DNA of 64,000 nucleotides, from positions 34,057-98,056 of IMG/VR virus record IMGVR_UViG_3300023184_000047; one strand, written 5' to 3'. Within the stretch, counting starts at the first letter, position 1. Every line of letters begins with the position of its first letter. Below the pieces are notes generated by a model that was given only the letters and a program-made list of their open reading frames with translations, searched no databases and was not told the DNA's origin. This DNA comes from a virus. Its lineage: Duplodnaviria; Heunggongvirae; Uroviricota; Caudoviricetes. Shown in pieces: positions 1-12,505 of this stretch. Position numbers and translations under genes: made by a program.

Positions 1-249
1 AGTTCGTATATTGGATCTTATAATTGTAGTAGTGAATATGAAATTACTATAAAAGATTTAGCTGAATTAATAGCAGAAATCTTAGAGTTTAAAGGTAATA
101 TTGTATATAATACGGATAAACCTGAAGGGCATCCAAGAAAAGGATTTTCTTGTGATAAATTAAAAAAAACCGGGTGGGGAGCATCAACTTCATTAAAAGA
201 AGGTATTCAATTAGCCTATAAATGGTATAAACAAACTTTAACTCAATAA
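1..249 (+). CDS. fcl: GDP-L-fucose synthase (GDP-4-keto-6-deoxymannose epimerase/reductase), C-terminal fragment
   Basis: Frame-1 translation ...NTDKPEGHPRKGFSCDKLKKTGWGASTSLKEGIQLAYKWYKQ* resembles the Fcl C-terminus (KPDGTPRKLLDV..LHQLGW...YQWF). It lies immediately upstream of gmd. Confidence 0.55.
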   Translation, partial: SSYIGSYNCSSEYEITIKDLAELIAEILEFKGNIVYNTDKPEGHPRKGFSCDKLKKTGWGASTSLKEGIQLAYKWYKQTLTQ

Positions 250-250
250 T

Positions 251-1126
251 ATGATAACATATACATTATCTACCTTTAACACATTAAACTACTTAAAACT
301 TGCAATTCATTCAGCTAGAGAAAATGGTTATTATAAAGACGCTCCATTTATTATACATGCTGAAAATTGTACTGATGGTACTGATGAATGGTTAGAAGAA
401 AATAAAGAAAGATATAATTTAGAAGTCTATATTGAAAAAAATGAAACCCCTCGAGGAATAGGTGGAGGAATGAATTTTTGCGCTAGTAAAGTTAAAACCA
501 AATACATTGGGTTTCTATCCTCGGACTTTTATATGTCTCGAAATTGGGATAAAGAATTAGTAGAATTGTGTGAAAATAACCCTCAAGATAAACTATGGAC
601 CTTTTGTTATAGAGTAGAACCAGATATTTTTAATGATCCACATAGCAGACCCGGAGTTATTAAAGTATCAGAAGATACTTTTGGAGAATATTATCATAAC
701 TTTAAAGCTGATTTGTTTGAAGAATGGGCTGATGAATTTACCACATTAAATGATATCCAATACAATCTACCTCAGGGAGTAAGTGGTGTGATCAAAAAAG
801 AAGATTGGGACTATATAGGAGGTAATGATGATAGATTTGCTCCAATGTATTGGGAAGATGCTGATATATTTACTAGGATGTTAAATGAAGGTTTTAAATT
901 TATTACAACAAGTAAAACATTATTATATCATTTTGCCTCCAGAACTAGCAGATTCCCAGATGATAATTTAAAACAAAGACCAGCTCATTTAGCCGAGTAT
1001 GAGCAAAGAAGTTTACGTAGATTTATAGAAAAGTATGGGAAATTACCACAACATGGTCCTTTAGGAGAATATTATCCTATGCCTATTGTAGATGGTTCAC
1101 CAAATAGAATAAACCAAAATAACTAA
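251..1126 (+). CDS. putative glycosyltransferase (hypothetical)
   Basis: 291-aa ORF between fcl and gmd. Only weak GT-A-like N-terminal features; context-based call. Confidence 0.3.
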   Translation: MITYTLSTFNTLNYLKLAIHSARENGYYKDAPFIIHAENCTDGTDEWLEENKERYNLEVYIEKNETPRGIGGGMNFCASKVKTKYIGFLSSDFYMSRNWDKELVELCENNPQDKLWTFCYRVEPDIFNDPHSRPGVIKVSEDTFGEYYHNFKADLFEEWADEFTTLNDIQYNLPQGVSGVIKKEDWDYIGGNDDRFAPMYWEDADIFTRMLNEGFKFITTSKTLLYHFASRTSRFPDDNLKQRPAHLAEYEQRSLRRFIEKYGKLPQHGPLGEYYPMPIVDGSPNRINQNN

Positions 1127-1127
1127 T

Positions 1128-2096
1128 ATGAGTAAAACAGCATTAATAACCGGGATAAACGGAATGGATGGAAGTCACTTAGCAGATTTCCTATTAGAAA
1201 AAGGATATATTGTTTACGGTTTGGAGAGACGCAGCTCAGGTGAAACTAGAGCAAATATTCTTCACCTTCAAGATAGAATAAAATTCATCAAAGGAGACTT
1301 AACAGACCAAAATTCATTGCTTCGAGCTCTTAAAGAATCTCAGCCAGATGAAGTATATAACTTAGCTGCTCAATCCTTTGTAGGTGAAAGTTGGAATACA
1401 CCTGAACAAACTAGTGATGTAACAGGATTAGGAGTACTTAGGATGCTAGAAGCCATTCGTGAATACGGCTCAGATAAAATCAAATTTTATCAAGCATCAT
1501 CTTCAGAAATGTTTGGACGTATGGTTGAAAACCCAGCAAATGAAAACACCCCATTTTATCCTCGTTCACCTTATGGTGTTGCTAAATTATATGGACATTG
1601 GATAACCAAAAACTACAGAGAATCTTATAATATGTTTGCCTGCTCAGGTATATTATTTAACCATGAATCCGAAAGACGTGGTTTGGAATTTGTAACTAGA
1701 AAAATAACTAATGGTGTAGCTAAAATACATTTAGAATTAGCAGATCACATTTCATTAGGTAATTTAGATGCTCAACGTGACTGGGGATATGCTCCTGATT
1801 ATGTTGAAGCAATGTGGTTAATGTTACAGCAAGATACTCCTGATGACTATGTTATTGCTACTAATTGTACTTATTCTATTAAAGATTTCTTAGATGAAGC
1901 CTTTATAGCAATTGGGATTGCAGATTGGGAACCATATGTTAAAATAGATCCCAAATTTATCCGCCCAGCTGAAGTTGATATTCTTAGGGGAAATTGTACA
2001 AAAGCAGAACAAAATTTAAGATGGGCACCCAAAACTAGTTTTAAAGAAATGGTACACTTAATGGTACAAAATGATATAAAATTATTAAGTAAATGA
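1128..2096 (+). CDS. gmd: GDP-mannose 4,6-dehydratase
   Basis: N-terminus ALITGINGMDGSHLADFLLEKGYIVYGLERRSS matches the GMD Rossmann motif [25 protein letters not shown].RRSS. Short-chain dehydrogenase YxxxK present (YGVAKLYGHW). Length 322 aa. Confidence 0.85.
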   Translation: MSKTALITGINGMDGSHLADFLLEKGYIVYGLERRSSGETRANILHLQDRIKFIKGDLTDQNSLLRALKESQPDEVYNLAAQSFVGESWNTPEQTSDVTGLGVLRMLEAIREYGSDKIKFYQASSSEMFGRMVENPANENTPFYPRSPYGVAKLYGHWITKNYRESYNMFACSGILFNHESERRGLEFVTRKITNGVAKIHLELADHISLGNLDAQRDWGYAPDYVEAMWLMLQQDTPDDYVIATNCTYSIKDFLDEAFIAIGIADWEPYVKIDPKFIRPAEVDILRGNCTKAEQNLRWAPKTSFKEMVHLMVQNDIKLLSK

Positions 2097-3145
2097 TATC
2101 ACTAATAATACCTGTTACAACATCTAATTTAAACTATACAAATAATATAGTTCGTAATATTAGAGATTTATACCCTAATGAAGAAGAAGTTGAAATTATT
2201 CTAGAAACTAACGATAATGTCAGTTTGGGAATTAATTACAATAACGCTGTTGCTCGTGCTAAAGGTGAAAAAATAATATTATTACATAACGATATGGTTT
2301 TATCTAAAGGTTTTATAGAAACCATGGATAAACATATAAGTAAACGCACAATAACGACGTATACTCGCATAGAACCTCCCATTTACCCAGATATATATCC
2401 TGGTAAAGTTATTAAAGATTGTGGCTCGGACTTAGGTACATTTGATGAAAACCTATTTAATCAAATTCAATTAGAAGAAAGTTTAATCGATGGGGGTTCT
2501 CAATTATTCTTTGGATGTTATAAAGAAGATTATATTGGGATTGATGGGTATACATTTAAAAAATTTTGTGAAGATGATGATCTTCACTTAAGATATCAAC
2601 TAGCCGGATTCGAACATAAAGTAAGTTCAGCTTATGTTTATCATTTTGTAAGCAAAACATCACGTGTAGGAGACTATAATCATATAGAAAAAAATTCAAA
2701 TCGTGATTTTATTCGTAAATGGGGTTCAAGAAAACCATCTGTAAAATATAATATTGCTTATGTTGTTAAAAATTGTCAATTACCTGTTTTAGATACCTTT
2801 GAATTATTTTGTGATAGAATATATGTAAATGAACGATTATCTATTGGTAGATTGTGGGATTACGTTGAATTAGAACAGGAAAATACTTCATTTGATCTAT
2901 CAAAGAGAGTATATACTATAGAACATAATGATCCAATACTAGAAAACGATATTGTAGTTGAATTTGATTATCTAAAATTTTCTCCTGAAGCTTGGGAAAT
3001 ATTACAACAATTACCTAATATAATTAAAGAAAATGGTGAAGTAGGTACATTTGAGTTGGATATATTTACAATTACTATTAATTCACTGCCTGAATACCAA
3101 AACGATTTAATATTTATATCAAAACAACATAATGAAACCAGTTAG
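2093..3145 (+). CDS. family-2-like glycosyltransferase
   Basis: N-terminal IIPVTTSN...EIILETNDN...ILLHNDMVL pattern is typical of a GT-A fold. Start overlaps the gmd stop (ATGA). Ends with TAG. Confidence 0.45.
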   Translation: MISLIIPVTTSNLNYTNNIVRNIRDLYPNEEEVEIILETNDNVSLGINYNNAVARAKGEKIILLHNDMVLSKGFIETMDKHISKRTITTYTRIEPPIYPDIYPGKVIKDCGSDLGTFDENLFNQIQLEESLIDGGSQLFFGCYKEDYIGIDGYTFKKFCEDDDLHLRYQLAGFEHKVSSAYVYHFVSKTSRVGDYNHIEKNSNRDFIRKWGSRKPSVKYNIAYVVKNCQLPVLDTFELFCDRIYVNERLSIGRLWDYVELEQENTSFDLSKRVYTIEHNDPILENDIVVEFDYLKFSPEAWEILQQLPNIIKENGEVGTFELDIFTITINSLPEYQNDLIFISKQHNETS

Positions 3146-3542
3146 TATATTAGAAGAATTACAATTATTTCTTGAAGCTGAAGGAGCAGCCGACATCACA
3201 CCAGAAGATGCTGCTATAGAATCAGATATGGAAAATCCTAAAACACCTAAATTAAAATTAGATGTAAACCCAAACCCAACTAAAAAAGGTATTAAAGTAC
3301 AATTTATATTACCTAGAGGGTATTCTACAAACCAAAAAGAAGATTTAACTCAAAAATTAAAAACTAAATTAAATGCTGGATTAGCTCCTCATATGTTAAG
3401 TGTAGATGTTGATTTAGATGTTCCTTATGAAAATGTAATTGGATTTTTAATTAGACTAAGCAATATCAAAATGCTAGTTAAATCTGCTCTAGAAGGCGGA
3501 ACAACATCTCCAAATACAGGAGAAAACATACCTCAAGTATAA
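3132..3542 (+). CDS. hypothetical protein
   Basis: ORF co-oriented with neighbours; overlapping start typical of operon packing. Confidence 0.4.
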   Translation: MKPVSILEELQLFLEAEGAADITPEDAAIESDMENPKTPKLKLDVNPNPTKKGIKVQFILPRGYSTNQKEDLTQKLKTKLNAGLAPHMLSVDVDLDVPYENVIGFLIRLSNIKMLVKSALEGGTTSPNTGENIPQV

Positions 3543-3558
3543 TATAAATAAATCAGTT

Positions 3559-3987
3559 ATGGAAGAACAAGACCCACTCAAAAACCTCCAGGCCCAGATG
3601 AAAAAATTAATTGGGACTGAGAGTACTGTTAAGCGTCGTAAAAAAACTAAAGAAGAGGCACAACATGAGATGTTTTTAACTACTATATCGTTATTAGAAC
3701 ATATCCTCAATCGAGGTATAATGTTAGAAAGCGATTATGGTTTTAATACTATTAAATATGATGAACCTTTTTACCAAATTATTGATAGCTTAATATACCT
3801 GCACTTTGATGAAGATGCAGCTGATTTAATCATGTTTTATCTGTATGAGCGAATAAATCCTGATGGAACGCTAAATCCTATTATTGATATAACAGGAGCG
3901 GAAGTTTCTTTGGAGGACGCAGAAGACCTTTGGATATTGGTACAACAAATAACAGAAGAAAACAAAAAACCTGATGCCAGCAGCTAA
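3559..3987 (+). CDS. hypothetical protein
   Basis: ORF, co-oriented, tight spacing. Confidence 0.4.
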   Translation: MEEQDPLKNLQAQMKKLIGTESTVKRRKKTKEEAQHEMFLTTISLLEHILNRGIMLESDYGFNTIKYDEPFYQIIDSLIYLHFDEDAADLIMFYLYERINPDGTLNPIIDITGAEVSLEDAEDLWILVQQITEENKKPDASS

Positions 3988-4630
3988 ACCATTAAGCAAA
4001 GAGGATATATTGCGAGCAATGCGATTTACAAAATCAAATCGTGCGGCCGCCCGTTATTTAGGAGTATCTTACCAACATTATAAACCTTGGGCTAAACAAT
4101 ATAAAATAAATGATGGGGATATAGATACTCCAACATTGTTTGATATTCATAAAAACCAATCAGGTAAAGGTATTCCTAAATTTCTTCCTAATAAACGAAA
4201 AGATCCTAATGTTAAGGGAATAGTTGAAACAGGAACAGGGTGGGAATCGTTTACACCTGAAAAAATTAAATCAAGACTAATAGCCGAGGCATATTTAAAA
4301 GATGAATGTTATCAATGCGGGTTTAATGAACGTAGAGTAACAGATTATAAAACTCCATTATTACTTCATTTTAAAGATGGGAATAAATGTAATTATCTAT
4401 TAGAAAATTTAGATCTTCAATGTTATAATTGCTATTTTCTATATGTAGCAGATCCCTTAACACCAGATCAAGTTAGACATATTGAAGATAACACCGAAGT
4501 AAAAGCAGTAGCTTATGAATGGGATTTAACTCCTGAACAAATAGTTGCTATAAAAGAATCAGGTTTATGGGATGAAGACGATGATGATGAAGATGAGCCC
4601 GGATCTGAATTTATATCTTATATAAAGTAA
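3974..4630 (+). CDS. hypothetical protein with Cys-rich motif and poly-acidic C-terminal tail
   Basis: CYQCGF...CNYL...CYNCYF cysteine cluster. C-terminus DEDDDDEDEPGSEF. Confidence 0.4.
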   Translation: MPAAKPLSKEDILRAMRFTKSNRAAARYLGVSYQHYKPWAKQYKINDGDIDTPTLFDIHKNQSGKGIPKFLPNKRKDPNVKGIVETGTGWESFTPEKIKSRLIAEAYLKDECYQCGFNERRVTDYKTPLLLHFKDGNKCNYLLENLDLQCYNCYFLYVADPLTPDQVRHIEDNTEVKAVAYEWDLTPEQIVAIKESGLWDEDDDDEDEPGSEFISYIK

Positions 4631-4657
4631 ATATTTATAAACAACCAAATAAAGATT

Positions 4658-4870
4658 ATGAACGAAAACAAGTATTACATCGTTAAAGTTGAATTTCAGT
4701 CAATTGACGATAAAGGAAAAACAAAAAGACAAAAATTAGATTATTTAGTAGATGCTGTATCTGTAACAGAAGCAGAAGTTAAAATAACTAGATGGTTAAC
4801 AGATAATGGTGAGCGTAATTTTGAGATCAAAGCAGCAATCGCCTCACCTATTGTAGAAGTAATAGAATAA
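4658..4870 (+). CDS. hypothetical protein
   Basis: ORF, co-oriented. Confidence 0.35.
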   Translation: MNENKYYIVKVEFQSIDDKGKTKRQKLDYLVDAVSVTEAEVKITRWLTDNGERNFEIKAAIASPIVEVIE

Positions 4871-5025
4871 TGAAAGAACCAGAAATTTGCCCAAATTGTG
4901 GAGCTGTATTATCATGTGGTTGTCAAAAAAGAGTAGCTAGTGATGGTTCCTTATGTTGCGATAATTGTATTCAAATCTATGAGCAACACCTTGTAGCAAT
5001 TAAAGTAATAACAACAAATGGCTAA
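4870..5025 (+). CDS. small Zn-ribbon protein (51 aa)
   Basis: Hand-translated MKEPEICPNCGAVLSCGCQKRVASDGSLCCDNCIQIYEQ... with CxxC...CxC...CxxC. Shorter than the ORF-track cutoff. Start overlaps the upstream stop (TAATG). Confidence 0.3.
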   Translation: MKEPEICPNCGAVLSCGCQKRVASDGSLCCDNCIQIYEQHLVAIKVITTNG

Positions 5026-5404
5026 AAAACATAATATATTTACTCCTTTACTTCTCCAAGTAGATAACCCCTCAGATATTTTTAATAACTACAGATTGGA
5101 ATTATCAAAGTCAGCAGTGGAGGCCGTATTGTATTGTGTTAATAATAAATTAACTAATATTGTATTTGTTGAAATCGAAACTGTGCCTTCGTTTTCAACT
5201 TTACAATTAAGAGTTGATCAACAATCTTTCCTAGATATTTTAGATAAAAATTTAGACACTTTAGAGAAATTTGAAGAATATGAATTGTGTGCTAAGATGG
5301 TAAAATTAAAAGAAAAAATTATTAAAGATCAAGCTAAAAAACCTCGTACTCAAAGAAAAAATAGATCTATAGACGATTTAATTAAGACTATAAAAGATCT
5401 ATAA
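5018..5404 (+). CDS. hypothetical protein
   Basis: ORF, co-oriented. Confidence 0.4.
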   Translation: MAKKHNIFTPLLLQVDNPSDIFNNYRLELSKSAVEAVLYCVNNKLTNIVFVEIETVPSFSTLQLRVDQQSFLDILDKNLDTLEKFEEYELCAKMVKLKEKIIKDQAKKPRTQRKNRSIDDLIKTIKDL

Positions 5405-5478
5405 AAAGACTTGGCTGTCTAAAATAAATTTCATACATTTATATTGTTGAATTACCGTTCGTAAAAACAAATAAAATT

Positions 5479-5757
5479 ATGGAACAATTATTAGCATTTA
5501 TTTTAGGGGTAGGTACAGCTCTCATAGTATGGGGAGTTGTGGTAGCGTTTAGAACAGCAAAGCAAGTAAAATTATTACAAGTAAATATAACTGATATTCA
5601 TCAAGTTATAAATCAAAATGAAGAAATGCTCAATCGTAGAATTGATCAGGAAATTAACAGAGTAGATGAAATCTACAGAGACTGCATCAGACATACAGAC
5701 TCTAGAGTAGATAAATTAGAATTAAAGATTACAACAAAAGAAATTTTAAAAGGATAA
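5479..5757 (+). CDS. small membrane protein
   Basis: N-terminal hydrophobic helix LLAFILGVGTALIVWGVVVAF. Flanked by an 11-bp inverted repeat (aattaccgttc / gaacggtaatt). Confidence 0.4.
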   Translation: MEQLLAFILGVGTALIVWGVVVAFRTAKQVKLLQVNITDIHQVINQNEEMLNRRIDQEINRVDEIYRDCIRHTDSRVDKLELKITTKEILKG

Positions 5758-5999
5758 ATTAAATAGAACGGTAATTTAATTTTTCCATAATTTATATATA
5801 TTTATAGACATAAAATAATAAAATGCAAGCACTTCAAAACATACATCAACAACTGAGCATAGCGTCAAGAGCCATTAGTCAATGGTCGGATTCGTTATGT
5901 GGGGATGTCATTGTAGGCTTTACGTATAATAACGAACCGAAAACAACTAAAACCGGGATATGATATAATTAAATTATAACATATAAATTCTAATAAGAA

Positions 6000-6030
6000 C
6001 CCGGATCAAAAAAGATTCGGGTTTTTTTTT
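6000..6030 (+). terminator. rho-independent terminator
   Basis: cccggatc-aaaaaa-gattcggg hairpin (one G.U pair) followed by a T9 run. Confidence 0.6.
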
Positions 6031-6058
6031 AAAATAAATTTGGATACCGTAAAAAGGA

Positions 6059-6078
6059 TTCGTATATTTAAGTATAAT
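6059..6078 (+). promoter_or_regulatory. class-A conserved promoter-like motif TTCGTATATTTAAGTATAAT (drives the tRNA array)
   Basis: Same about 20-nt motif recurs at 8874, 12469, 14369, 14801, 17193, 18049, 21224, 23775, 25802 and 31012. Each sits about 15-30 nt upstream of a gene start and often just after a terminator. Confidence 0.5.
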
Positions 6079-6235
6079 AAAAAGGGGGAGTGGTAAATGG
6101 TAAAGCGCTCAAGGCATTGAGAGATGAGGTTCGAATCCTCCAAGTAGCAGGCATGTGAAAAAATATGGTATTATTGCAGGTTCGAATCCTGTCTGCCCCA
6201 CAACAAGAGTTCATTGACATATTGGATAAGATTAA

Positions 6236-6329
6236 GGAGGATTAAGCCGAAAGATTCTGGGTACCGGCAGCGCACTTGAAATGCGTCGATCATTAAAATG
6301 GTGTATGGGTTCGAATCCTATATCCTCCG
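6236..6329 (+). tRNA. tRNA-Ser(TGA), type II
   Basis: Acceptor ggaggat/atcctcc perfect. Anticodon stem gcgca/tgcgt with loop cTTGAaa. Long variable arm. T-arm atggg-TTCGAAT-cctat. Confidence 0.65.
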
Positions 6330-6335
6330 CAACAT

Positions 6336-6407
6336 TGGCTTATAGTGTAATGGTTAGCACAAAACACTTTGACTGTTTTAGTCTAGGTTCGAGTCCTAGT
6401 AAGCCAA
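6336..6407 (+). tRNA. tRNA-Gln(TTG)
   Basis: Acceptor tggctta/taagcca. D-stem gtgt/gcac. Anticodon stem aaaca/tgttt with loop cTTTGac. T-arm ctagg-TTCGAGT-cctag. Confidence 0.75.
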
Positions 6408-6416
6408 CTTTAATTT

Positions 6417-6490
6417 CTAGTAGCGAAGCCCGGTTTCATGCCTCACTTGGACTGAGGAGTACGTAGGTTCGAATCCTGCCTATTAGACCA
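6417..6490 (+). tRNA. tRNA-Pro(TGG), CCA encoded
   Basis: Anticodon stem cctca/tgagg with loop cTTGGac. T-arm gtagg-TTCGAAT-cctgc. Acceptor ctagtag/ctattag, then A and CCA. D-arm irregular. Confidence 0.5.
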
Positions 6491-6548
6491 CCACAAATAG
6501 AGCCGACGGCCGTGTAAAGGTGCCGCCTATCGTGAATTTCGGCAATAT

Positions 6549-6621
6549 TCCCTTGAAGCTCATGTGGACGGGCACTCCGCTTTTAACGGAGGGGTAGATG
6601 GTTCGAGGCCATCCGGGGGAA
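6549..6621 (+). tRNA. tRNA-Lys(TTT)
   Basis: Acceptor tcccttg/cggggga (two G.U). D-stem gctc/gggc. Anticodon stem ctccg/cggag with loop cTTTTaa. T-arm gatgg-TTCGAGG-ccatc. Confidence 0.7.
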
Positions 6622-6680
6622 CAAACACAGTTTACTTCGGCAACGTTCTGTATGGTGCACATAAAAATCGGAGCCGACCA

Positions 6681-6751
6681 GCCTCGATGGCGTAATGGAA
6701 GCGTATTTGTTTTACATGCAAATGGCAGTGGTTCGATTCCACTTCGAGGTA
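6681..6751 (+). tRNA. tRNA-Val(TAC)
   Basis: Acceptor gcctcga/tcgaggt. Anticodon stem tttgt/gcaaa with loop tTTACat. T-arm agtgg-TTCGATT-ccact. Confidence 0.7.
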
Positions 6752-6759
6752 CAAAAATT

Positions 6760-6840
6760 GGGTAGCAAAAGTCGTTCGGATACGGCAGCCAGACTGTAAA
6801 TTTGGTCCTCACGGGAGTGGTTCGAGTCCACTGCTGCCCA
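6760..6840 (+). tRNA. tRNA-Tyr(GTA), long variable arm
   Basis: Acceptor gggtagc/gctgccc. Anticodon stem ccaga/tttgg with loop cTGTAaa. Variable stem-loop tcc-tcacg-gga. T-arm agtgg-TTCGAGT-ccact. Confidence 0.6.
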
Positions 6841-6943
6841 CAAAGTGTTGACTTCAGGTTCCCAGTAGGGAAGTACACTTAAATAAAACAAGCACGGGGA
6901 AAGTGTCGACTTAAGAAACGGCAAGTACCAACGAAGGGAGTAC

Positions 6944-7016
6944 GGGTCTTTTGTATAGCTGGTGCGTACGCTAGTCTGAAGAACTAGAGGAGCAGGTTCG
7001 ATTCCTGTAGGACCCA
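6944..7016 (+). tRNA. tRNA-Phe(GAA)
   Basis: Acceptor gggtctt/aggaccc. Anticodon stem ctagt/actag with loop cTGAAga. T-arm gcagg-TTCGATT-cctgt. Confidence 0.75.
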
Positions 7017-7029
7017 CTGTATTAACCTT

Positions 7030-7101
7030 GGACTTGTAGCTCAGAGGAAGAGCGTTTGCCTGTTAAGCAAAGGGTCGGGATTTCGAAATTCCCCAAGTCC
7101 G
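7030..7101 (+). tRNA. tRNA-Asn(GTT)
   Basis: Acceptor ggacttg/caagtcc perfect. D-arm tagctcagaggaagagc. Anticodon loop cTGTTaa. Confidence 0.75.
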
Positions 7102-7110
7102 CAATAAATT

Positions 7111-7182
7111 GCTCCTATAGTAGAATGGTTAGCACACATCTCTGATAAGGATGAAATGGAGGTTCAATTCCTTCTAGGAGTA
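7111..7182 (+). tRNA. tRNA-Ile(GAT)
   Basis: Acceptor gctccta/taggagt. Anticodon stem catct/ggatg with loop cTGATaa. T-arm ggagg-TTCAATT-ccttc. Confidence 0.65.
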
Positions 7183-7240
7183 CAAAGTAGAATAAGCTAG
7201 TGTTGGGCCTACAGGAATGATATCTTCCACAACACTCTTT

Positions 7241-7327
7241 GGAGAATAGTCTAATATTGGTTCGTAGTGGCATCCTGCTAAGATGTTCCTGGTAAAACAG
7301 GTGAGAGTTCGATTCTCTTGTTCTCCG
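7241..7327 (+). tRNA. tRNA-Ser(GCT), type II
   Basis: Acceptor ggagaat/gttctcc. Anticodon stem gcatc/gatgt with loop cTGCTaa. Variable arm cctg-gtaaaa-cagg. T-arm gagag-TTCGATT-ctctt. Length 87 nt. Confidence 0.7.
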
Positions 7328-7463
7328 CAAAAAAACCTCCTCACCGTCCTCACAACGCATCTAAGGAATGCAGGAGATGAAAGTACGAACGGGGCACTAG
7401 TGGTAGGACACTTGATCAAAAAATCTATAGTACAACGATAGGGTAAGAGGTTCCCTATCAACT

Positions 7464-7532
7464 ACCGAGTGAGCTTGGGATCAAGGATGGCTCATATCCG
7501 CCCTTAGGTTGGTTCGAATCCAACACTCGGTA
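7464..7532 (+). tRNA. tRNA-Met(CAT) copy 1 (Met, fMet or Ile-lysidine type)
   Basis: Acceptor accgagt/actcggt perfect. Anticodon loop cTCATat. T-arm gttgg-TTCGAAT-ccaac. Compressed D-arm, 69 nt. Confidence 0.5.
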
Positions 7533-7603
7533 CAAAATTAGAAAATGAAGATTAAACCAAACTCATGCCGGATGAGCTTCTTATTGGTTGTCTAATTTTA
7601 CAT

Positions 7604-7677
7604 GGTGATTGTAGCTGAATTGGTAAAGCGTCTGATTGTGGTTCAGGAGATTGTGGGTTCGAGTCCCATCTTTCACA
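7604..7677 (+). tRNA. tRNA-His(GTG) with extra 5' G(-1)
   Basis: Anticodon stem tctga/tcagg with loop tTGTGgt. T-arm gtggg-TTCGAGT-cccat. A G precedes the acceptor, as in His tRNAs. Acceptor gtgattg/ctttcac has two T.T mismatches. Confidence 0.5.
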
Positions 7678-7684
7678 CAAACAC

Positions 7685-7763
7685 ATCCCTGTGGTGAAAT
7701 GGTAAACACGTTTGGTTTAAGCCCAAATGCCTAGGCTTGCTGGTTCGACTCCAGTCAGGGATA
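7685..7763 (+). tRNA. tRNA-Leu(TAA), type II
   Basis: Acceptor atccctg/cagggat perfect. Anticodon stem tttgg/ccaaa with loop tTTAAgc. Variable arm about 11 nt. T-arm gctgg-TTCGACT-ccagt. Confidence 0.7.
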
Positions 7764-7768
7764 CAATT

Positions 7769-7840
7769 GGTCTTATAGTTTAATTGGAAAAACTTATCGC
7801 TACGAACGATAGAACAAAGGTTCGATCCCTTTTAAGACCT
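7769..7840 (+). tRNA. tRNA-Arg(ACG)
   Basis: Acceptor ggtctta/taagacc perfect. D-stem gttt/aaac. Anticodon stem tatcg/cgata with loop cTACGaa. T-arm aaagg-TTCGATC-ccttt. Confidence 0.8.
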
Positions 7841-7845
7841 CAACT

Positions 7846-7917
7846 GCCCTATTAGTTAAACGGATATAACAAATCTCTTCTAAAGATTAATTCTAGGTTC
7901 GATTCCTGGATGGGGTA
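7846..7917 (+). tRNA. tRNA-Arg(TCT)
   Basis: Acceptor gccctat/atggggt. D-stem gtta/taac. Anticodon stem aatct/agatt with loop cTTCTaa. T-arm ctagg-TTCGATT-cctgg. Confidence 0.75.
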
Positions 7918-8015
7918 CAAAAAAATCGTATACCAAAGTTTCCCGTTTAGGATGCAGCTTTAGAGTATTAAGGTGAATAGGCCATTCACAGTAGGTTTAG
8001 CGATATCCTGCAAAT

Positions 8016-8086
8016 GCGTCAGTGGTGCAATGGTAGCATACCGGTCTCCAAAACCGACGATGAGGGTTCGACTCCCTCCTGGCGTG
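8016..8086 (+). tRNA. tRNA-Trp(CCA)
   Basis: Acceptor gcgtcag/ctggcgt. D-stem gtgc/gcat. Anticodon loop cTCCAaa. T-arm gaggg-TTCGACT-ccctc. Confidence 0.65.
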
Positions 8087-8338
8087 CTAAATTATTAATT
8101 ATGAAAAAGAAATTCGATATGCATTAAGTTTATTAACTTAAAATGCATAAAAATGAGAATCAAAAACTATACCAACAAAGAGTATAAGTTAGAAAAAAGA
8201 AAAGAGTATTCAGAATGGGATACCTGGTTTGAAGACTATTGGAGTAAAAAATCCAATATATGGGCCTTCAAGTATAGAGAATACCGTACCTGGAAGTACA
8301 ACAGAAAAACACAATACAAACCTTTAAAATAAGTTATC

Positions 8339-8845
8339 ATGAGTAAGTACCAAAAAACACTGGTAATCGATTCAAGCTTTATGGCAAGAAGCATTATCTC
8401 TACCGAAAGAGCTTTCGTGATTTCGTATAAGGGCAATGCAGAAATAATAGCTGAACACCCAGAAACATTTGGATTAGTAAATCCTAATCTAGAAATTTTT
8501 AAACCTTCAATCATTAGGGTTTACAAATACGTAAAACAAAACATTCAAAAAGTTCCTCTAACAAGAGAAAATGTTTATCGAAGAGATAATTACGAATGTG
8601 TTTATTGTGGATCAAGCCACTTGAAGTCACTAACACTTGATCATGTCATTCCACAATCAAAAGGTGGACAAAATGCTTGGGATAATTTAGTAACAGCATG
8701 TAGAAGATGTAATCATGAAAAAGCAGATTTAACTCTTGAGGAATATGGTAAAGAAATAGTAGAACCAAAAAGACCTCACTATTTTATGCTTATGAAGCAG
8801 TTAACACACATTCCAGTAGAATGGGAAAAGTTTTTACTTTTTTAG
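8339..8845 (+). CDS. HNH homing endonuclease inserted in the tRNA array
   Basis: CVYCGSSHLKSLTLDHVIPQSKGGQNAWDNLVTACRRCNHEK is the canonical HNH/ββα-Me motif with a Cys4 zinc site. A 59-aa ORF sits just upstream (8152..8331). Confidence 0.8.
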   Translation: MSKYQKTLVIDSSFMARSIISTERAFVISYKGNAEIIAEHPETFGLVNPNLEIFKPSIIRVYKYVKQNIQKVPLTRENVYRRDNYECVYCGSSHLKSLTLDHVIPQSKGGQNAWDNLVTACRRCNHEKADLTLEEYGKEIVEPKRPHYFMLMKQLTHIPVEWEKFLLF

Positions 8846-8873
8846 TAAAAAAGTTTGGATATTAAAAAATAAG

Positions 8874-8893
8874 TTCGTATATTTAAGTATAAT
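8874..8893 (+). promoter_or_regulatory. class-A promoter-like motif (second tRNA sub-cluster)
   Basis: aagTTCGTATATTTAAGTATAATtaaag. Confidence 0.45.
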
Positions 8894-9062
8894 TAAAGAG
8901 ATACAAAAATCGGAATTGACCGAGGCATGTGATTAACAGTATTGTACTGACTCGCTTAAGCCCTAAGAGCACTTTAATTTTAAATATAAATCATCTACTA
9001 CATAACACGGCGCCAAATTAATTGTGACATGTACTGTCTGGAAGGTCAGGCTAGGTGAATAG

Positions 9063-9132
9063 GGGCAGGATGGTTATGGAGACCGGCGGGATTGCAAACT
9101 CCGCAGAGTAAGTTCGATTCTTACCTTGCCCT
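9063..9132 (+). tRNA. tRNA-Cys(GCA)-like
   Basis: Acceptor gggcagg/cttgccc. T-arm gtaag-TTCGATT-cttac perfect. Anticodon loop tTGCAaa on a 4-bp stem. D-arm weak. Confidence 0.45.
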
Positions 9133-9227
9133 CTTTTAAGGTTCGACCCTCTACCAAATGTGTTACACCCACAGATGGATACCGAGAGGGAGCTACCGAC
9201 TGATAAGTGACCGCACATGCGGTAAAT

Positions 9228-9340
9228 GGCAAGGTGGCGGAATGGTAAACGCACTGAATAGTTAAACAGAGTGGATAAGTCGCATTATAGTTGAAATACA
9301 CATAAGACCCACGTGCAGGTTCAATTCCTGTCCTTGGCCA
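9228..9340 (+). pseudogene. aberrant 113-nt tRNA-like gene (tRNA with about 40-nt insertion, or pseudo-tRNA)
   Basis: Clean 5' half ggcaagg-tg-gcgg-aatggtaaa-cgc. T-arm gcagg-TTCAATT-cctgt. Acceptor partner ccttggc (6 of 7 paired). No canonical 5-7-5 anticodon arm in the 62 nt between them. Confidence 0.3.
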
Positions 9341-9352
9341 CAAAAATAAATT

Positions 9353-9426
9353 GCTCCGGTGCTGGAACTGGTATACAGGGCGGTCTTAGAAACCGTTTAT
9401 TGAGGGTTCGAATCCCTCCTGGAGTA
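9353..9426 (+). tRNA. tRNA-Leu(TAG) with short variable arm (atypical for Leu)
   Basis: Acceptor gctccgg/ctggagt. Anticodon stem gcggt/accgt with loop cTTAGaa. Variable region only 5 nt. T-arm gaggg-TTCGAAT-ccctc. Confidence 0.55.
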
Positions 9427-9431
9427 CAAAA

Positions 9432-9498
9432 TTACAGTTAGCTTATAGTAAAGCAGCAGGGGCTAACCTGCAGAACGGATACGAAAACCGGCTGTAAT
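9432..9498 (+). tRNA. tRNA-like with CUA (amber-reading) anticodon and degenerate T-arm; possible suppressor or pseudo-tRNA
   Basis: Acceptor ttacagt/gctgtaa (6 bp plus one G.U). D-stem gctt/aagc perfect. Anticodon stem gcagg/cctgc perfect with loop ggCTAac. T-region cgg-atacgaaaa-ccg is non-canonical. Length 67 nt. Confidence 0.35.
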
Positions 9499-9503
9499 TA
9501 AAT

Positions 9504-9576
9504 GCTTCCTTAGCTCAATTGGCAGAGCACTTGTTTTGTAAACAAGAGGTTATCGGATCGTGGCCGGTAGGAAGCT
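9504..9576 (+). tRNA. tRNA-Thr(TGT) with non-canonical T-loop
   Basis: Acceptor gcttcct/aggaagc perfect. D-stem gctc/gagc perfect. Anticodon stem cttgt/acaag perfect with loop tTTGTaa. T-arm atcgg-ATCGTGG-ccggt lacks TTC. Confidence 0.65.
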
Positions 9577-9627
9577 CAAATGGTCTGAGGGAGTCCTTTA
9601 AGGAATAAATAGCCTGTCCCTCTCTAT

Positions 9628-9701
9628 GCAATTATAGTGTTCAACGGCTAGCACGTGGGCCTTCCAAGTCTGAAGTTTCGGTTCGAATCCGAATAATTGC
9701 T
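9628..9701 (+). tRNA. tRNA-Gly(TCC)
   Basis: Acceptor gcaatta/taattgc perfect. D-stem gtgt/gcac. Anticodon loop cTTCCaa (stem with three G.U). T-arm ttcgg-TTCGAAT-ccgaa perfect. Confidence 0.7.
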
Positions 9702-9752
9702 CAAGGGTGTGTGGGAACCCAAGAATATGTGATGAACATATACCCACAATCT

Positions 9753-9824
9753 GCTGCGTTAGTGAAGGGGTTAACACGTATCACTTTCTATGATAAGGCA
9801 CGGGTTCGAATCCCGTACGCAGTA
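9753..9824 (+). tRNA. tRNA-Glu(TTC)
   Basis: Acceptor gctgcgt/acgcagt. Anticodon stem tatca/tgata with loop cTTTCta. T-arm acggg-TTCGAAT-cccgt. Confidence 0.75.
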
Positions 9825-9830
9825 CAATAA

Positions 9831-9902
9831 GGGGCTATAGTGAAATTGGCATCACGATAGATTTGCATTCTGTTATTCCGGGTTCGAATCCCGGTAGCTC
9901 CA
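9831..9902 (+). tRNA. tRNA-Ala(TGC)
   Basis: Acceptor ggggcta/tagctcc (G3.U70 present). D-stem gtga/tcac. Anticodon loop tTTGCat. T-arm ccggg-TTCGAAT-cccgg. Confidence 0.75.
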
Positions 9903-10010
9903 CAAAATTAGGAAGTAAAGACTGAGCAGGACACCGTAAAATGATTCGCAACATTAGAGCTGTTTCTTTTTTTAATATGTGAAAGCGAGATATTAAAACC
10001 TAATTTTTTT

Positions 10011-10082
10011 GGTCTATTCGTTCAACGGCTAGGATACTACCCTGTCACGGTAGGGATGAGAGTTCGATTCTCTCATAGACCG
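10011..10082 (+). tRNA. tRNA-Asp(GTC)
   Basis: Acceptor ggtctat/atagacc perfect. Anticodon stem ctacc/ggtag with loop cTGTCac. T-arm gagag-TTCGATT-ctctc. Confidence 0.75.
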
Positions 10083-10091
10083 CTAATAAAT

Positions 10092-10164
10092 TGCGTTAAA
10101 GTGTAAAGGTTGCATCCTGGTCTCATAAGCCAGGGGGGTGGTTCGAGTCCACGTTACGCTACCA
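10092..10164 (+). tRNA. tRNA-Met(CAT) copy 2, CCA encoded, unpaired 1:72
   Basis: Anticodon stem ctggt/gccag with loop cTCATaa. T-arm ggtgg-TTCGAGT-ccacg. 3' end ...ttacgct-A-CCA. Position 1 (T) does not pair with position 72 (T). Confidence 0.5.
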
Positions 10165-10236
10165 GGCCTTGTAGCTCAAAGGAGGAGCAGTTCGCTCATA
10201 ACGAAAAGGTTGGGATATCATAATTCCCCAAGGCCA
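10165..10236 (+). tRNA. tRNA-Met/Ile(CAT) copy 3 with non-canonical T-loop
   Basis: Acceptor ggccttg/caaggcc perfect. D-stem gctc/gagc. Anticodon loop cTCATaa. T-region ggga-TATCATAAT-tccc lacks TTC. Directly abuts the previous tRNA. Confidence 0.55.
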
Positions 10237-10300
10237 CTAAATTTTATCCATTATGAGGTCAATTCCTTCGTCTCCAATGTAGGTTAGCTATTGCTAACTT

Positions 10301-10534
10301 ATGACTCAGAAATTGAGAATTTGGAGAGTAGTCCCTACCAGTAAGACTGGTGTTCAGGCTCCCACGTTTTTTGTTGAAACAACAGAGAATGGTAGAGAAG
10401 AAGCAGTAGCATCTGCAAACCGCCAAGCAAGACAAAGGTCAGGTTTGGGTAAGTTTAACAATTGGAATTTCGAATTAACCAAAATGAATGTCCGAGTTGA
10501 CAGACATGGAAAGTATATTCGTCATCACCAATAA
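10301..10534 (+). CDS. hypothetical small basic protein
   Basis: 77-aa ORF after the tRNA array. A hairpin (gttagc-tatt-gctaac) sits just before the ATG. Confidence 0.3.
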   Translation: MTQKLRIWRVVPTSKTGVQAPTFFVETTENGREEAVASANRQARQRSGLGKFNNWNFELTKMNVRVDRHGKYIRHHQ

Positions 10535-10603
10535 AAAGTATTTGAAGAAAGGTTTGGATATCTGGATCTTTCTTCGTATATTAAATAAAAAGAAATAAAA
10601 GTT

Positions 10604-10972
10604 ATGGAAAAAGAATTTATTCCTTACGAACAATCACTTGCTTTAAAAGAATTAGGATTTGATGAACCTTGTTTTGCTTTTTATGATGAAAGTTTATACT
10701 TTCCAAATAATAAAAATCAATATGGAACATTTTGTAATCAGCCACTAGATGCACCATCTTGTTCAGCACCACTTTACCAACAAGCATTTAGATGGTTTAG
10801 AGAGAAGTATAAACTAAGTGGTTTGATTGAGATTGGCACACAAGAATATTCTTTTTTTATTTTTAATGAAAGTGAGGATAGTAGAGAAGTGAGTAGTAAT
10901 ATTAATGGTTCTTACGAAGAAGCAGAACTTGAATGTCTTAAAAAATTAATAGAAATAGTAAAAAATAAATAA
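10604..10972 (+). CDS. hypothetical protein
   Basis: ORF, co-oriented. Confidence 0.4.
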   Translation: MEKEFIPYEQSLALKELGFDEPCFAFYDESLYFPNNKNQYGTFCNQPLDAPSCSAPLYQQAFRWFREKYKLSGLIEIGTQEYSFFIFNESEDSREVSSNINGSYEEAELECLKKLIEIVKNK

Positions 10973-10986
10973 TAAAAATCATAGTT

Positions 10987-11898: not shown

Positions 11899-11899
11899 T

Positions 11900-12094: not shown

Positions 12095-12099
12095 TTTGG

Positions 12100-12425: not shown

Positions 12426-12468
12426 TTTTAAAAATAATTACAAAAAGGCTTGCTTACGTAAGTCTTTT

Positions 12469-12489
12469 TTCGTATATTTAAGTATAAAT
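12469..12489 (+). promoter_or_regulatory. class-A promoter-like motif
   Basis: tttttTTCGTATATTTAAGTATAAATttaaaa about 17 nt upstream of the ATG at 12506. Confidence 0.45.
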
Positions 12490-12505
12490 TTAAAACAAAA
12501 AGGTT

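What the first reader, a model, noticed from the sequence alone, without database searches (positions are those of the whole stretch)
1..3145. Phage-encoded GDP-L-fucose biosynthesis (gmd plus fcl) with two glycosyltransferase-like genes
A clear GDP-mannose 4,6-dehydratase and the C-terminus of a GDP-fucose synthase bracket a 291-aa protein, and a GT-A-like glycosyltransferase follows, all co-oriented with overlapping stops and starts. Virus-encoded GDP-fucose pathways are known from giant chloroviruses but are uncommon in tailed phages. The module could fucosylate virion proteins or remodel host surface polysaccharide, for example to block superinfection.
Basis: partly seen in the sequence, partly recalled or inferred. 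Interest (0 to 1): 0.65.

Follow-up and report, generated by a model that had tools for sequence, protein, structure and literature searches.

The report
Phage fucose pathway inside glycan island
The region holds real phage genes for making GDP-fucose plus two sugar-transferring enzymes, but it is only the last quarter of a roughly 12-kb sugar-chain assembly island found throughout an abundant group of aquatic phages, a kind of feature already known from cyanophages and giant viruses, and what the sugar chain is attached to is still unknown.

Summary

These genes are the last quarter of a roughly 12.3-kb, 15-gene island on one strand. The island holds five glycosyltransferases and several sugar-tailoring enzymes. 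All are predicted soluble, and there is no flippase, polymerase or priming transferase. The phage is an uncultured myovirus related to Flavobacterium phage immuto.

The glycosyltransferase frame is conserved in immuto (59-62% identity) and in a Microcystis phage (38-54%). The sugar-making cassettes are swapped between close relatives. Some have a ColD-like dehydratase in place of Fcl, and some lack gmd and fcl altogether.

The enzymology is solid, but the acceptor is only inferred. Conservation in phages of two host phyla, and the absence of glycosylated nucleosides in immuto DNA, favour a phage-made acceptor such as a virion protein. Host envelope remodelling remains a serious rival.

Paired gmd and fcl with glycosyltransferases are already documented in cyanomyoviruses and chloroviruses. 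This is a new member of a known kind and of moderate interest.

The parts
1..249 (+). 3' end (82 codons plus stop) of fcl, the GDP-L-fucose synthase gene (GDP-4-keto-6-deoxymannose 3,5-epimerase/4-reductase). The full gene is 308 aa and starts 678 bases upstream of the window.
   Evidence: NF047922 gives E 1.2e-18 on the fragment. The fragment is 96% identical to the C-terminus of the full-length ortholog in L001. The full gene was recovered from L018, which is 100% identical to the window, and scores 388.9 bits. The catalytic residues are conserved. dN/dS is 0.08-0.12.
251..1126 (+). 291-aa soluble GT-A (family GT2) glycosyltransferase. It is a candidate fucosyl- or other deoxyhexosyl-transferase.
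1128..2096 (+). gmd, a 322-aa GDP-mannose 4,6-dehydratase.
   Evidence: TIGR01472 scores 434.1 bits against a cutoff of 415. P. aeruginosa Gmd 1rpn scores 395 bits over the full length. The motifs TGINGMDG, SSE, YGVAK and NHESERRG are present. dN/dS is 0.07-0.19.
2093..3145 (+). 350-aa two-domain protein. The N-terminal ~210 aa form a GT-A glycosyltransferase domain paralogous to ORF 251-1126. The C-terminal ~135-aa alpha/beta domain has unknown function. This is the last gene of the island and the ortholog of immuto gp169.
3132..4630 (+). Right-hand flank, not part of the glycan module. It holds two small conserved ORFs (136 and 142 aa, unknown function) and an HNH-endonuclease-like ORF (218 aa). 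These follow the island in nearly all relatives and in immuto, and so mark its 3' boundary.
   Evidence: Synteny clusters 11, 12 and 13. Identities to immuto are 39%, 27% and 50%. The 218-aa ORF matches PHROG HNH endonuclease families.

Best explanation
**What it is (shown by sequence, structure prediction and comparison).** Window 1-3145 is the 3' quarter of a ~12.3-kb, 15-gene, single-strand glycan-assembly island in an uncultured Immutovirus-like myovirus. The gene order is:
- GT-B glycosyltransferase (480 aa)
- GT-B-like glycosyltransferase (432 aa)
- Zn-ribbon protein
- GT2 glycosyltransferase (204 aa)
- nucleotidyltransferase
- short DegT-like protein
- methyltransferase
- NeuD/PglB/VioB-type sugar N-acetyltransferase
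- three proteins of unknown function
- Fcl
- GT-A (291 aa)
- Gmd
- GT-A (350 aa)

**How the window's part most likely works (from established pathway knowledge).** Gmd dehydrates host GDP-D-mannose to GDP-4-keto-6-deoxy-D-mannose. Fcl epimerises C3 and C5 and reduces C4 to give GDP-L-fucose.

**What is inferred.**
- One of the two adjacent paralogous GT-A enzymes transfers the fucose. This rests on adjacency only.
- The five soluble transferases together build a fucose-containing hetero-oligosaccharide in the cytoplasm of the infected cell.
- The three conserved 5' transferases probably lay down a common stem.
- The swappable 3' cassettes (Fcl, or a ColD-like dehydratase with a methyltransferase, or neither) probably vary the outer sugars.
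- The acceptor is most likely a phage-made molecule, most plausibly a virion protein, as in chloroviruses and some mycobacteriophages.

**Confidence.** About 0.9 for the enzymology and island architecture, and about 0.45 for the virion-protein acceptor. The figure given is for the whole statement.
For: **Enzyme identities.**

**The window's own upstream DNA.** L018 is 100% identical to the window over 13,145 bases. The NeuD-type acetyltransferase scores 161.8 bits against a cutoff of 160.8.

**GT-A folds.**

**Functional constraint.** All four genes are under purifying selection, with dN/dS 0.06-0.30 against 6-15 relatives. Their GC content (28-34%) matches the phage.

**Solubility.** No island protein has a hydrophobic 19-residue segment above 1.4 on the Kyte-Doolittle scale. 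No Wzx, Wzy, ABC-transporter or priming-transferase family was found.

**Lineage-wide conservation.**
- The island is syntenic in 17 IMG/VR contigs and in cultured Flavobacterium phage immuto, gp181-gp169.
- The frame transferases are 59-62% identical to immuto, compared with 42% for the baseplate wedge protein.
- They are 38-54% identical in Microcystis phage Mel-JY01, and the first one is 28% identical in Rhodothermus phage RM378.
- Conservation in phages of Bacteroidota and Cyanobacteria, while host surface glycans differ, argues for a phage-intrinsic acceptor.

**Cassette swapping.** The break falls exactly at the gene junction, window position ~245.

**DNA as acceptor is disfavoured.**
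- Immuto virion DNA shows only dA, dC, dT and formyl-dPreQ1 (PMC10516641).
- The window's ThyA homolog keeps the Asp169 and Asn177 equivalents, so it is a canonical thymidylate synthase (criteria from PMC13326640).

**Precedents for virus-encoded soluble glycosylation of capsids.** PBCV-1 GMD and GMER (PMC5408694) and Che8-type mycobacteriophages (PMC11256854).
Against: - No direct evidence identifies the acceptor.
- The island is not next to the structural genes. The baseplate and tail genes lie ~45 kb downstream in the window. In Mel-JY01 and RM378 the conserved transferase pair sits among replication genes. That placement differs from what I recall for the mycobacteriophages with glycosylated virions, and it would also suit a DNA-directed function.
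- Fcl scores below NCBIfam's own equivalog cutoff (388.9 against 500).
- Neither GT-A has a canonical DxD motif. Each has a single invariant Asp at that position (D92 and D67).
- Donor specificity cannot be read from the fold.
- Relatives L016 and L017 keep both GT-A genes but lack gmd and fcl. These transferases therefore do not strictly depend on a phage-made GDP-fucose supply.
- Soluble transferases are also normal in bacterial O-antigen clusters, so solubility alone does not exclude a host lipid-linked acceptor.
Confidence: 0.45

Rival explanations
1. Host envelope remodelling. The phage transferases act at the cytoplasmic face on the host's undecaprenyl-linked O-antigen, capsule or glycoprotein precursors. 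Host flippases and ligases then export the altered, fucosylated glycan. This would change the cell surface during infection, block superinfection, or stop progeny from adsorbing to debris.
For: - This is the standard reading of gmd/fcl/glycosyltransferase clusters in cyanomyoviruses and pelagimyophages (PMC9602691; PMC7029224).
- The gene set resembles a bacterial O-antigen or colanic-acid cluster: gmd, fcl, GT2s, a PglD/NeuD-type acetyltransferase and DegT-like genes.
- The GT2-204 protein weakly matches a PHROG labelled GtrB-like O-antigen conversion (E 4e-4).
- Cassette swapping resembles O-antigen diversification.
Against: - The island has no priming phosphoglycosyltransferase, flippase, polymerase or ligase, and no membrane protein at all.
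- The three frame transferases are conserved at 38-62% identity in phages infecting Flavobacterium and Microcystis. Those hosts' surface glycans should differ, and a host-specific acceptor would not favour such conservation.
- The closest cellular Gmd proteins are at most 65% identical, and none of the top 80 is from Bacteroidota. The genes are old residents of the phage, not recent host-derived additions.
Confidence: 0.3
2. DNA hypermodification. The transferases glycosylate a hydroxylated base in phage DNA, as in T4, RB69, DLP3 and the 5hmC-glycan clusters. This would protect the DNA against host nucleases.
For: - Phage DNA glycosyltransferases can have GT-A or GT-B folds and can be paired with sugar epimerases (10.1101/2023.12.21.572611; PMC13326640).
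- In Mel-JY01 and RM378 the conserved transferase pair lies among replication genes.
- The island's Methyltransf_24 protein hits a PHROG labelled DNA methyltransferase (E 1.6e-12).
- The window contains a thymidylate synthase homolog.
Against: - The ThyA homolog keeps the Asp169 and Asn177 equivalents. It is therefore neither a 5hodCMP synthase (D169N) nor dCMP-specific (criteria).
- No TET/JBP dioxygenase or DNA cytosine methyltransferase domain was found in the island genes scanned or in 44 other window ORFs.
- Virion DNA of immuto, which carries the syntenic island, gave only dA, dC, dT and formyl-dPreQ1.
- No example I found among known DNA glycosylation clusters uses five transferases plus amino-sugar and acetyl-sugar tailoring.
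Confidence: 0.07
3. Another acceptor or role. The island might make a free or lipid-bound oligosaccharide, glycosylate a host cytoplasmic protein to take over the cell, or simply top up host nucleotide-sugar pools.
For: - The acceptor is unknown.
- The C-terminal domain of the 350-aa protein and three island proteins have no recognisable family.
- GT2-204 weakly resembles the peptide S-glycosyltransferase SunS (E 3e-4).
Against: - Five transferases conserved as a syntenic block imply an ordered oligosaccharide rather than pool supplementation.
- No export or lipid-handling genes are present.
Confidence: 0.15

Closest known systems
gmd-fcl 'LPS / cell-wall' auxiliary gene clusters of T4-like cyanomyoviruses (P-SSM2, S-SKS1, S-CAM7, S-SCSM1 ORF121-135)
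   Same: Both are tailed aquatic myoviruses that carry Gmd and Fcl (46-55% identical to the window's proteins) together with several glycosyltransferases in a variable region. In both cases the function is untested.
   Different: In cyanophages gmd and fcl are directly adjacent. Here a GT-A gene separates them, and the order is fcl-GT-gmd. The phage backbone is unrelated: Immutovirus-like, not T4-like. Here the transferase frame is a conserved lineage feature rather than a sporadic island.
Flavobacterium phage vB_FspM_immuto island gp181-gp169 (NC_055915, 49.2-60.0 kb)
   Same: The frame is syntenic. GT-480, GT-432 and GT2-204 are 59-62% identical. The DegT-like and NeuD-like genes are 89% and 80% identical. 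The terminal GT-A is 42% identical. The same downstream flank is present.
   Different: Immuto has no gmd or fcl. Instead it has a full-length aminotransferase, a mannosyltransferase-like gene and a 283-aa sugar epimerase. It lacks the extra 291-aa GT-A.
Chlorovirus PBCV-1 GMD/GMER with virus-encoded capsid glycosylation
   Same: A virus-encoded GDP-fucose pathway is combined with soluble, cytoplasmic, virus-encoded glycosyltransferases. The recombinant enzymes are shown to be active, and the capsid glycans contain fucose (PMC5408694).
   Different: PBCV-1 is a eukaryotic giant virus, and its glycan on the capsid protein is proven. Here the acceptor is unknown.
Mycobacteriophage virion glycosylation (Che8-type, cluster F1)
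   Same: These are tailed phages that glycosylate capsid proteins with phage-encoded GT-A-type transferases. The Che8 glycosyltransferase is a structural match to the 350-aa protein in BFVD (E 1.4e-7; PMC11256854).
   Different: Those phages carry only two or three transferases and, as far as I recall, no nucleotide-sugar synthesis genes. Here there are five transferases plus sugar synthesis genes, far from the structural module.
Bacterial O-antigen / colanic acid clusters (gmd, fcl/wcaG, GT2 transferases)
   Different: The island has no priming transferase, flippase, polymerase or transporter. The closest cellular Gmd is only 65% identical.
Phage DNA glycosylation gene clusters (T4, RB69/DLP3 arabinosyl-5hoC, 5hmC glycans)
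   Same: Both combine phage-encoded transferases with sugar-nucleotide enzymes.
   Different: No enzyme that makes a hydroxylated base is present in the window. The ThyA homolog is canonical. DNA of the cultured relative immuto carries no glycosylated nucleoside.

Membership tests
GDP-mannose 4,6-dehydratase (TIGR01472 / PF16363) | Full-length match above the curated equivalog cutoff | tested here: met
   434.1 bits against a cutoff of 415, covering residues 3-319 on profile positions 1-341 of 342. PF16363 gives E 1.8e-130.
GDP-mannose 4,6-dehydratase (TIGR01472 / PF16363) | NADP-binding GxxGxxG motif, catalytic Ser/Thr-x-Glu, YxxxK, and the NHES..RG loop | tested here: met
   TGINGMDG, SSE (Ser in place of the usual Thr), YGVAK and NHESERRG all align to P. 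aeruginosa Gmd 1rpn.
GDP-mannose 4,6-dehydratase (TIGR01472 / PF16363) | Converts GDP-mannose to GDP-4-keto-6-deoxymannose | not testable with these tools
   This needs an enzyme assay.
GDP-L-fucose synthase Fcl/GMER (NF047922) | Full-length match above the curated equivalog cutoff | tested here: not met
   The full 308-aa protein from L018 scores 388.9 bits against a cutoff of 500. The match is end to end (residues 4-305 on positions 2-304 of 308), and the next family scores only 99.8 bits.
GDP-L-fucose synthase Fcl/GMER (NF047922) | SDR triad Ser107-Tyr136-Lys140 plus the epimerisation pair Cys109 and His179 (E. coli numbering, from my knowledge of the E. coli enzyme) | tested here: met
   All five align in the L001 ortholog against 1bws. 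The same motifs, SSGC, NEHYSIAK and ENSHV, are present in the window genome's own protein. These residues lie upstream of the window.
GDP-L-fucose synthase Fcl/GMER (NF047922) | The closest characterised relatives are Fcl enzymes, and a Gmd partner is present | tested here: met
   The top 18 PDB sequences are all GDP-fucose synthases (302.7 down to 145.9 bits). GDP-mannose 3,5-epimerase follows at 108 bits. Gmd lies 880 bases downstream.
GT-A glycosyltransferase, family GT2 (PF00535) | Pfam match above the gathering score | tested here: met
   ORF 251-1126 scores 54.1 against 23.3. ORF 2093-3145 scores 23.4 against 23.3, which is marginal.
GT-A glycosyltransferase, family GT2 (PF00535) | GT-A fold | tested here: met
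GT-A glycosyltransferase, family GT2 (PF00535) | DxD metal-binding motif | tested here: inconclusive
   Each protein has a single invariant Asp at the expected place (SSD92 and HND67). An invariant acidic motif lies further on (E202-D203-A-D205 and D161-D162-D163). A metal-independent GT-A fucosyltransferase, WrtF, is known (PMC12595478).
GT-A glycosyltransferase, family GT2 (PF00535) | Uses GDP-fucose as donor | not testable with these tools
   Inferred from adjacency only. L016 and L017 keep both transferases but lack gmd and fcl.
Wzx/Wzy- or ABC-dependent O-antigen / capsule cluster | Priming phosphoglycosyltransferase, flippase, polymerase or transporter (multi-pass membrane proteins) | tested here: not met
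   No island protein has a transmembrane-like segment; the maximum 19-residue hydropathy is 1.36. No such family appears in the Pfam or NCBIfam scans.
Phage DNA glycosylation cluster | An enzyme that makes a hydroxylated base: a ThyA homolog with D169N or N177D, or a TET/5mYOX dioxygenase with a methyltransferase | tested here: not met
   The ThyA homolog at 32693-33766 keeps the Asp and Asn equivalents. No TET or DNA methylase domain was found in the island genes scanned or in 44 further window ORFs. About 100 kb of the genome lies outside the window and was not seen.
Phage DNA glycosylation cluster | Glycosylated nucleosides in virion DNA | not testable with these tools
   For this phage it cannot be tested here. 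For the cultured relative immuto, which has the syntenic island, the literature reports only dA, dC, dT and fdPreQ1 (PMC10516641).
Virus-encoded virion glycosylation (chlorovirus / mycobacteriophage type) | Virus-encoded soluble transferases, with or without nucleotide-sugar enzymes | tested here: met
   Five soluble transferases plus Gmd, Fcl, an acetyltransferase, a nucleotidyltransferase and a methyltransferase.
Virus-encoded virion glycosylation (chlorovirus / mycobacteriophage type) | Glycan covalently attached to capsid or tail proteins | not testable with these tools
   This needs virion glycoproteomics.

The most novel reading that the evidence does not exclude
An abundant lineage of aquatic myoviruses, related to Flavobacterium phage immuto, coats its own virions with a self-made oligosaccharide. 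Three core transferases, conserved in phages of two host phyla, would build the stem. The outer sugars (L-fucose here, a ColD-derived dideoxy or amino sugar in sister strains) would be exchanged as gene cassettes between phages. That would give a strain-variable 'phage serotype' used for host recognition or for evading host or grazer recognition. It would be a tailed-phage counterpart of the clade-specific glycan coats of giant viruses.
Probability: 0.3. Interest if true: 0.7.

Novelty: new member of a known kind. Interest (0 to 1): 0.4.

Why it matters
What lytic aquatic phages do with their many sugar-biosynthesis genes has been an open question since the first cyanophage genomes. The usual answer, host LPS remodelling, has not been tested.

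This lineage offers a tractable case for three reasons:
- The island is conserved, its limits are clear, and its cassettes vary between near-identical genomes.
- A cultured relative, Flavobacterium phage immuto, carries the same frame.
- Immuto DNA chemistry is already known, which removes one of the three possible acceptors.

Showing where the glycan goes would settle whether such genes are 'auxiliary metabolic genes' for the host or part of the virion. It would also affect how phage glycosyltransferases are annotated in metagenomes, where these two GT-A families alone have about 1,900 and 3,500 members.

Tried and rejected
- **Near-identical reference phage.** Megablast of window 1-6000 against 50,697 phage records found nothing. 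The phage is known only from metagenomes.
- **Generic epimerase instead of Fcl.** Rejected after the full gene was recovered.
- **DNA glycosylation.** I examined this seriously because of two recent papers. It is disfavoured by the canonical ThyA active site, by the absence of TET or DNA methylase domains in 44 further window ORFs and by the immuto nucleoside data. The PHROG label 'DNA methyltransferase' on the Methyltransf_24 protein was judged too loose to count.
- **Complete O-antigen-type pathway.** Rejected because no membrane proteins are present.
- **Recent capture of gmd from the host.** Not supported. The best cellular matches are at most 65% identical and are scattered over many phyla, with no Bacteroidota in the top 80. 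GC content is fully phage-like.
- **7-deazaguanine genes in the window, as in immuto.** I looked for them and found none in the ORFs scanned. They may lie outside the window.
- **Not attempted.** Promoter and terminator scans, RNA family searches, and host prediction by CRISPR spacers.


Full report

Yes. Four co-oriented reading frames fill window 1-3145.
- The 322-aa product of 1128-2096 matches the curated gmd equivalog TIGR01472 above its cutoff (434.1 against 415 bits) and Pfam GDP_Man_Dehyd at E 1.8e-130.
- It aligns over its full length to Pseudomonas aeruginosa Gmd (1rpn, 395 bits). The nucleotide-binding glycines, the Ser-x-Glu and YxxxK catalytic residues and the NHES..RG loop are all in place.
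- The 82-residue fragment at 1-249 has GDP-L-fucose synthase as its best NCBIfam match, covering profile positions 233-304 of 308 (E 1.2e-18).
- ORF 251-1126 is a clear family-2 glycosyltransferase (54.1 bits against 23.3). ORF 2093-3145 only just reaches that cutoff (23.4 against 23.3).
- The genes are tightly packed: one-base spacers at two junctions, an ATGA overlap at the third and a 14-base overlap at the fourth.

**2. The missing part of fcl and what lies upstream**

A protein identical to ORF 2093-3145 exists in public assemblies.
- Its longest contig fetched (ENA ERZ27247968, 94,613 bp, locus L018) is 100% identical to window 1-13145. Window position 1 equals L018 position 7909. L018 therefore shows the window's own upstream DNA.
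- The fcl gene is complete there at 308 aa. It matches the Fcl model end to end at 388.9 bits. That is below NCBIfam's strict cutoff of 500, but the next family reaches only 99.8 bits.
- For the ortholog in L001 (94% identical overall, 96% in the window's fragment), the 18 best solved relatives are all GDP-fucose synthases. E. coli 1bws scores 302 bits.
- The equivalents of Ser107, Cys109, Tyr136, Lys140 and His179 are conserved.

**3. The two transferases**

- AlphaFold2 models built on 61 and 84 homologs are confident, with pLDDT 92 and 91.
- The two are paralogs, with 29% identity and E 1e-10.
- The 350-aa protein carries an extra C-terminal alpha/beta domain of about 135 residues that matched nothing informative.
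- Neither has a canonical DxD motif. Each has one invariant Asp at that position and an invariant acidic cluster further on.
- The fold does not reveal donor or acceptor.
- All four genes are under purifying selection against 6-15 relatives, with dN/dS 0.06-0.30.

**4. The real unit is larger**

Upstream of fcl, L018 and the related contigs carry eleven more co-oriented genes:
- a GT-B transferase of 480 aa
- a second GT-B-like protein of 432 aa
- a Zn-ribbon protein
- a 204-aa GT2 transferase
- a nucleotidyltransferase
- a short DegT-like protein
- a Methyltransf_24 methyltransferase
- a NeuD/PglB/VioB-type sugar N-acetyltransferase (161.8 against a cutoff of 160.8)
- three proteins without a useful family

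Together with the window's genes this makes 15 genes and about 12.3 kb. The window holds only the last 3.1 kb. No island protein has a membrane-spanning segment. No flippase, polymerase, transporter or priming transferase was detected.

**5. Which phage, and how widespread**

- The window has 22 tRNA genes, baseplate and tail-fibre-like genes and a primase.
- No phage record is close at the DNA level.
- Seventeen IMG/VR contigs carry the 291-aa transferase at 49-93% identity.
- The two GT-A families have 1,859 and 3,550 members in the metagenome protein collection, including Tara Oceans samples.

**6. Conserved frame, swapped cassettes**

A gene-cluster map of 18 genomes shows a constant frame. 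It runs GT-480, GT-432, Zn-ribbon, GT2-204, a variable middle, then unk-225, DUF707, unk-290, then GT-A-291, Gmd, GT-A-350 and the downstream flank.
- The slot before GT-A-291 holds Fcl in the window genome and seven others.
- In L002 and L005-L007 it holds a 387-aa PLP/PMP enzyme. That enzyme is closest to the GDP-4-keto-6-deoxymannose 3-dehydratase ColD (208 bits, against 122 for perosamine synthase). It has His where aminotransferases have the catalytic Lys. The significance of that His is from my knowledge of ColD.
- L005-L007 also have an extra methyltransferase between gmd and the last transferase.
- The DNA alignment to the window breaks exactly at the fcl stop codon.
- L016 and L017 lack gmd and fcl altogether.
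- Cultured phage immuto has the same frame (gp181-gp169) without gmd or fcl.
- Identities to immuto are 59-62% for the three frame transferases and 42% for the terminal GT-A. They reach 80-89% for the acetyltransferase and the DegT-like gene. That is far above the 42% of a structural protein and suggests recent exchange of tailoring cassettes between phage genera.
- Mel-JY01 keeps GT-480, GT-432, GT2-204 and unk-225 at 30-54% identity. Rhodothermus phage RM378 keeps GT-480 at 28%.

**7. Mechanism**

The first steps rest on sequence plus established pathway knowledge. Gmd converts GDP-D-mannose, presumably from the host, to GDP-4-keto-6-deoxy-D-mannose. Fcl converts that to GDP-L-fucose.

The rest is inference. 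One of the adjacent GT-A paralogs would add the fucose. The five soluble transferases would together assemble a hetero-oligosaccharide that also draws on an N-acetylated amino sugar made by the middle cassette.

The acceptor has three candidates.
- **DNA is disfavoured.** The window's ThyA homolog keeps the Asp169 and Asn177 equivalents, so it is a canonical thymidylate synthase, not a 5-hydroxy-dCMP synthase (diagnostic residues from PMC13326640). No TET/JBP or DNA methylase domains were found in 44 other window ORFs. Immuto virion DNA contains only dA, dC, dT and formyl-dPreQ1 (PMC10516641).
- **Host envelope glycans are possible.** This is the usual interpretation in cyanophages and pelagimyophages (PMC9602691; PMC7029224). 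It fits poorly with a transferase frame conserved across phages of Bacteroidota and Cyanobacteria and with the lack of any membrane component.
- **A phage-made acceptor, most plausibly a virion protein, fits best.** It matches the soluble enzymes, the lineage-wide conservation and the precedents in PBCV-1 (PMC5408694) and Che8-type mycobacteriophages (PMC11256854). No evidence here is direct. The island also lies far from the structural genes, and in Mel-JY01 and RM378 it lies among replication genes.

I put about 0.45 on a virion protein, 0.3 on host envelope remodelling, 0.07 on DNA and 0.15 on something else.

**8. Comparison with what is known, and novelty**

- Fcl homologs occur in 79 of 50,697 phage records. 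Nearly all are T4-like cyanophages in which gmd is adjacent.
- Gmd-like genes were hit in 269 records.
- S-SCSM1 has gmd, fcl, fucosyltransferases and five more transferases in one block.

A tailed-phage GDP-fucose module with transferases is therefore rare in proportion but already described. New here are the phage lineage, the fcl-GT-gmd arrangement and the recognition that the module is one interchangeable cassette of a conserved island.

I class it as a new member of a known kind and score interest at 0.4. It is not surprising to a specialist. It is useful because a cultured relative makes the long-open acceptor question directly testable.

Noticed in passing
window 6249-10083 (and 28396-28466): There is an array of 22 tRNA genes covering 19 amino acids (Ser, Leu and Arg twice; no tRNA-Met was called), all on the + strand. 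Local GC is 39-44%, against about 30% elsewhere. An HNH endonuclease ORF (8339-8845) sits inside the array. ARAGORN also calls an odd tRNA-like element with a two-base anticodon at 28396-28466.
   Followed up: no
window 16022-17155, 24523-25230 and unmapped ORFs between 8 and 44.7 kb: The window carries RNA-repair-type genes: an RNA ligase with an OB-fold domain, a metallophosphatase, and hits to cREC_REC (cyclic-phosphate processing) and AAA_33 kinase domains. Next to a large tRNA array, this suggests a tRNA repair system against host anticodon nucleases.
   Followed up: no
window 32693-33766: The thymidylate synthase homolog has canonical active-site residues. It also has an insertion of about 40 residues (between residues 214 and 256) that aligns to no solved thymidylate synthase.
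   Followed up: partly
L002, L005, L006, L007 at about 8836-9999; L005-L007 also at 11845-12414: Sister genomes replace fcl with a ColD-like PMP-dependent dehydratase (His at the catalytic Lys position). L005-L007 also insert a 189-aa methyltransferase between gmd and the last transferase. No Fcl/ColC-like reductase is visible there, so the final sugar in those strains is unclear.
   Followed up: partly
L018 3131-3781 and 4394-4969, compared with L020 11929-13142 (immuto gp172, gp171): The short DegT-like protein (216 aa, only the N-terminal part of an aminotransferase) and the NeuD-type acetyltransferase are 89% and 80% identical to those of phage immuto. Structural and frame proteins are only 42-62% identical. 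This points to recent lateral exchange of this cassette. The truncated DegT-like gene is conserved as such, so it is probably not a pseudogene.
   Followed up: partly
L021 (Microcystis phage Mel-JY01, 83.4-89.7 kb) and L022 (Rhodothermus phage RM378, 9.2-11.9 kb): The GT-480/GT-432 pair is conserved in phages of other host phyla. There it lies among DNA replication genes: family B polymerase, clamp loader and PD-(D/E)XK nuclease in Mel-JY01; a polymerase I-like gene, ribonucleotide reductase and helicase in RM378.
   Followed up: partly
window 51356-55978: A 1,540-aa ORF in the baseplate and tail region has no PHROG match at all. The neighbouring 642-aa ORF (58985-60913) matches an uncharacterised PHROG in seven repeated stretches and weakly matches tail-fibre families.
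   Followed up: no
window ORFs between 10 and 44.7 kb (not mapped individually): Single hits to a sigma-70 region 2 domain, an SPFH/Band 7 domain, an MGS-like domain and a T5orf172 domain. Of 34 ORFs scanned in that call, only 11 Pfam families were matched in total, so most of this part of the genome is uncharacterised.
   Followed up: no
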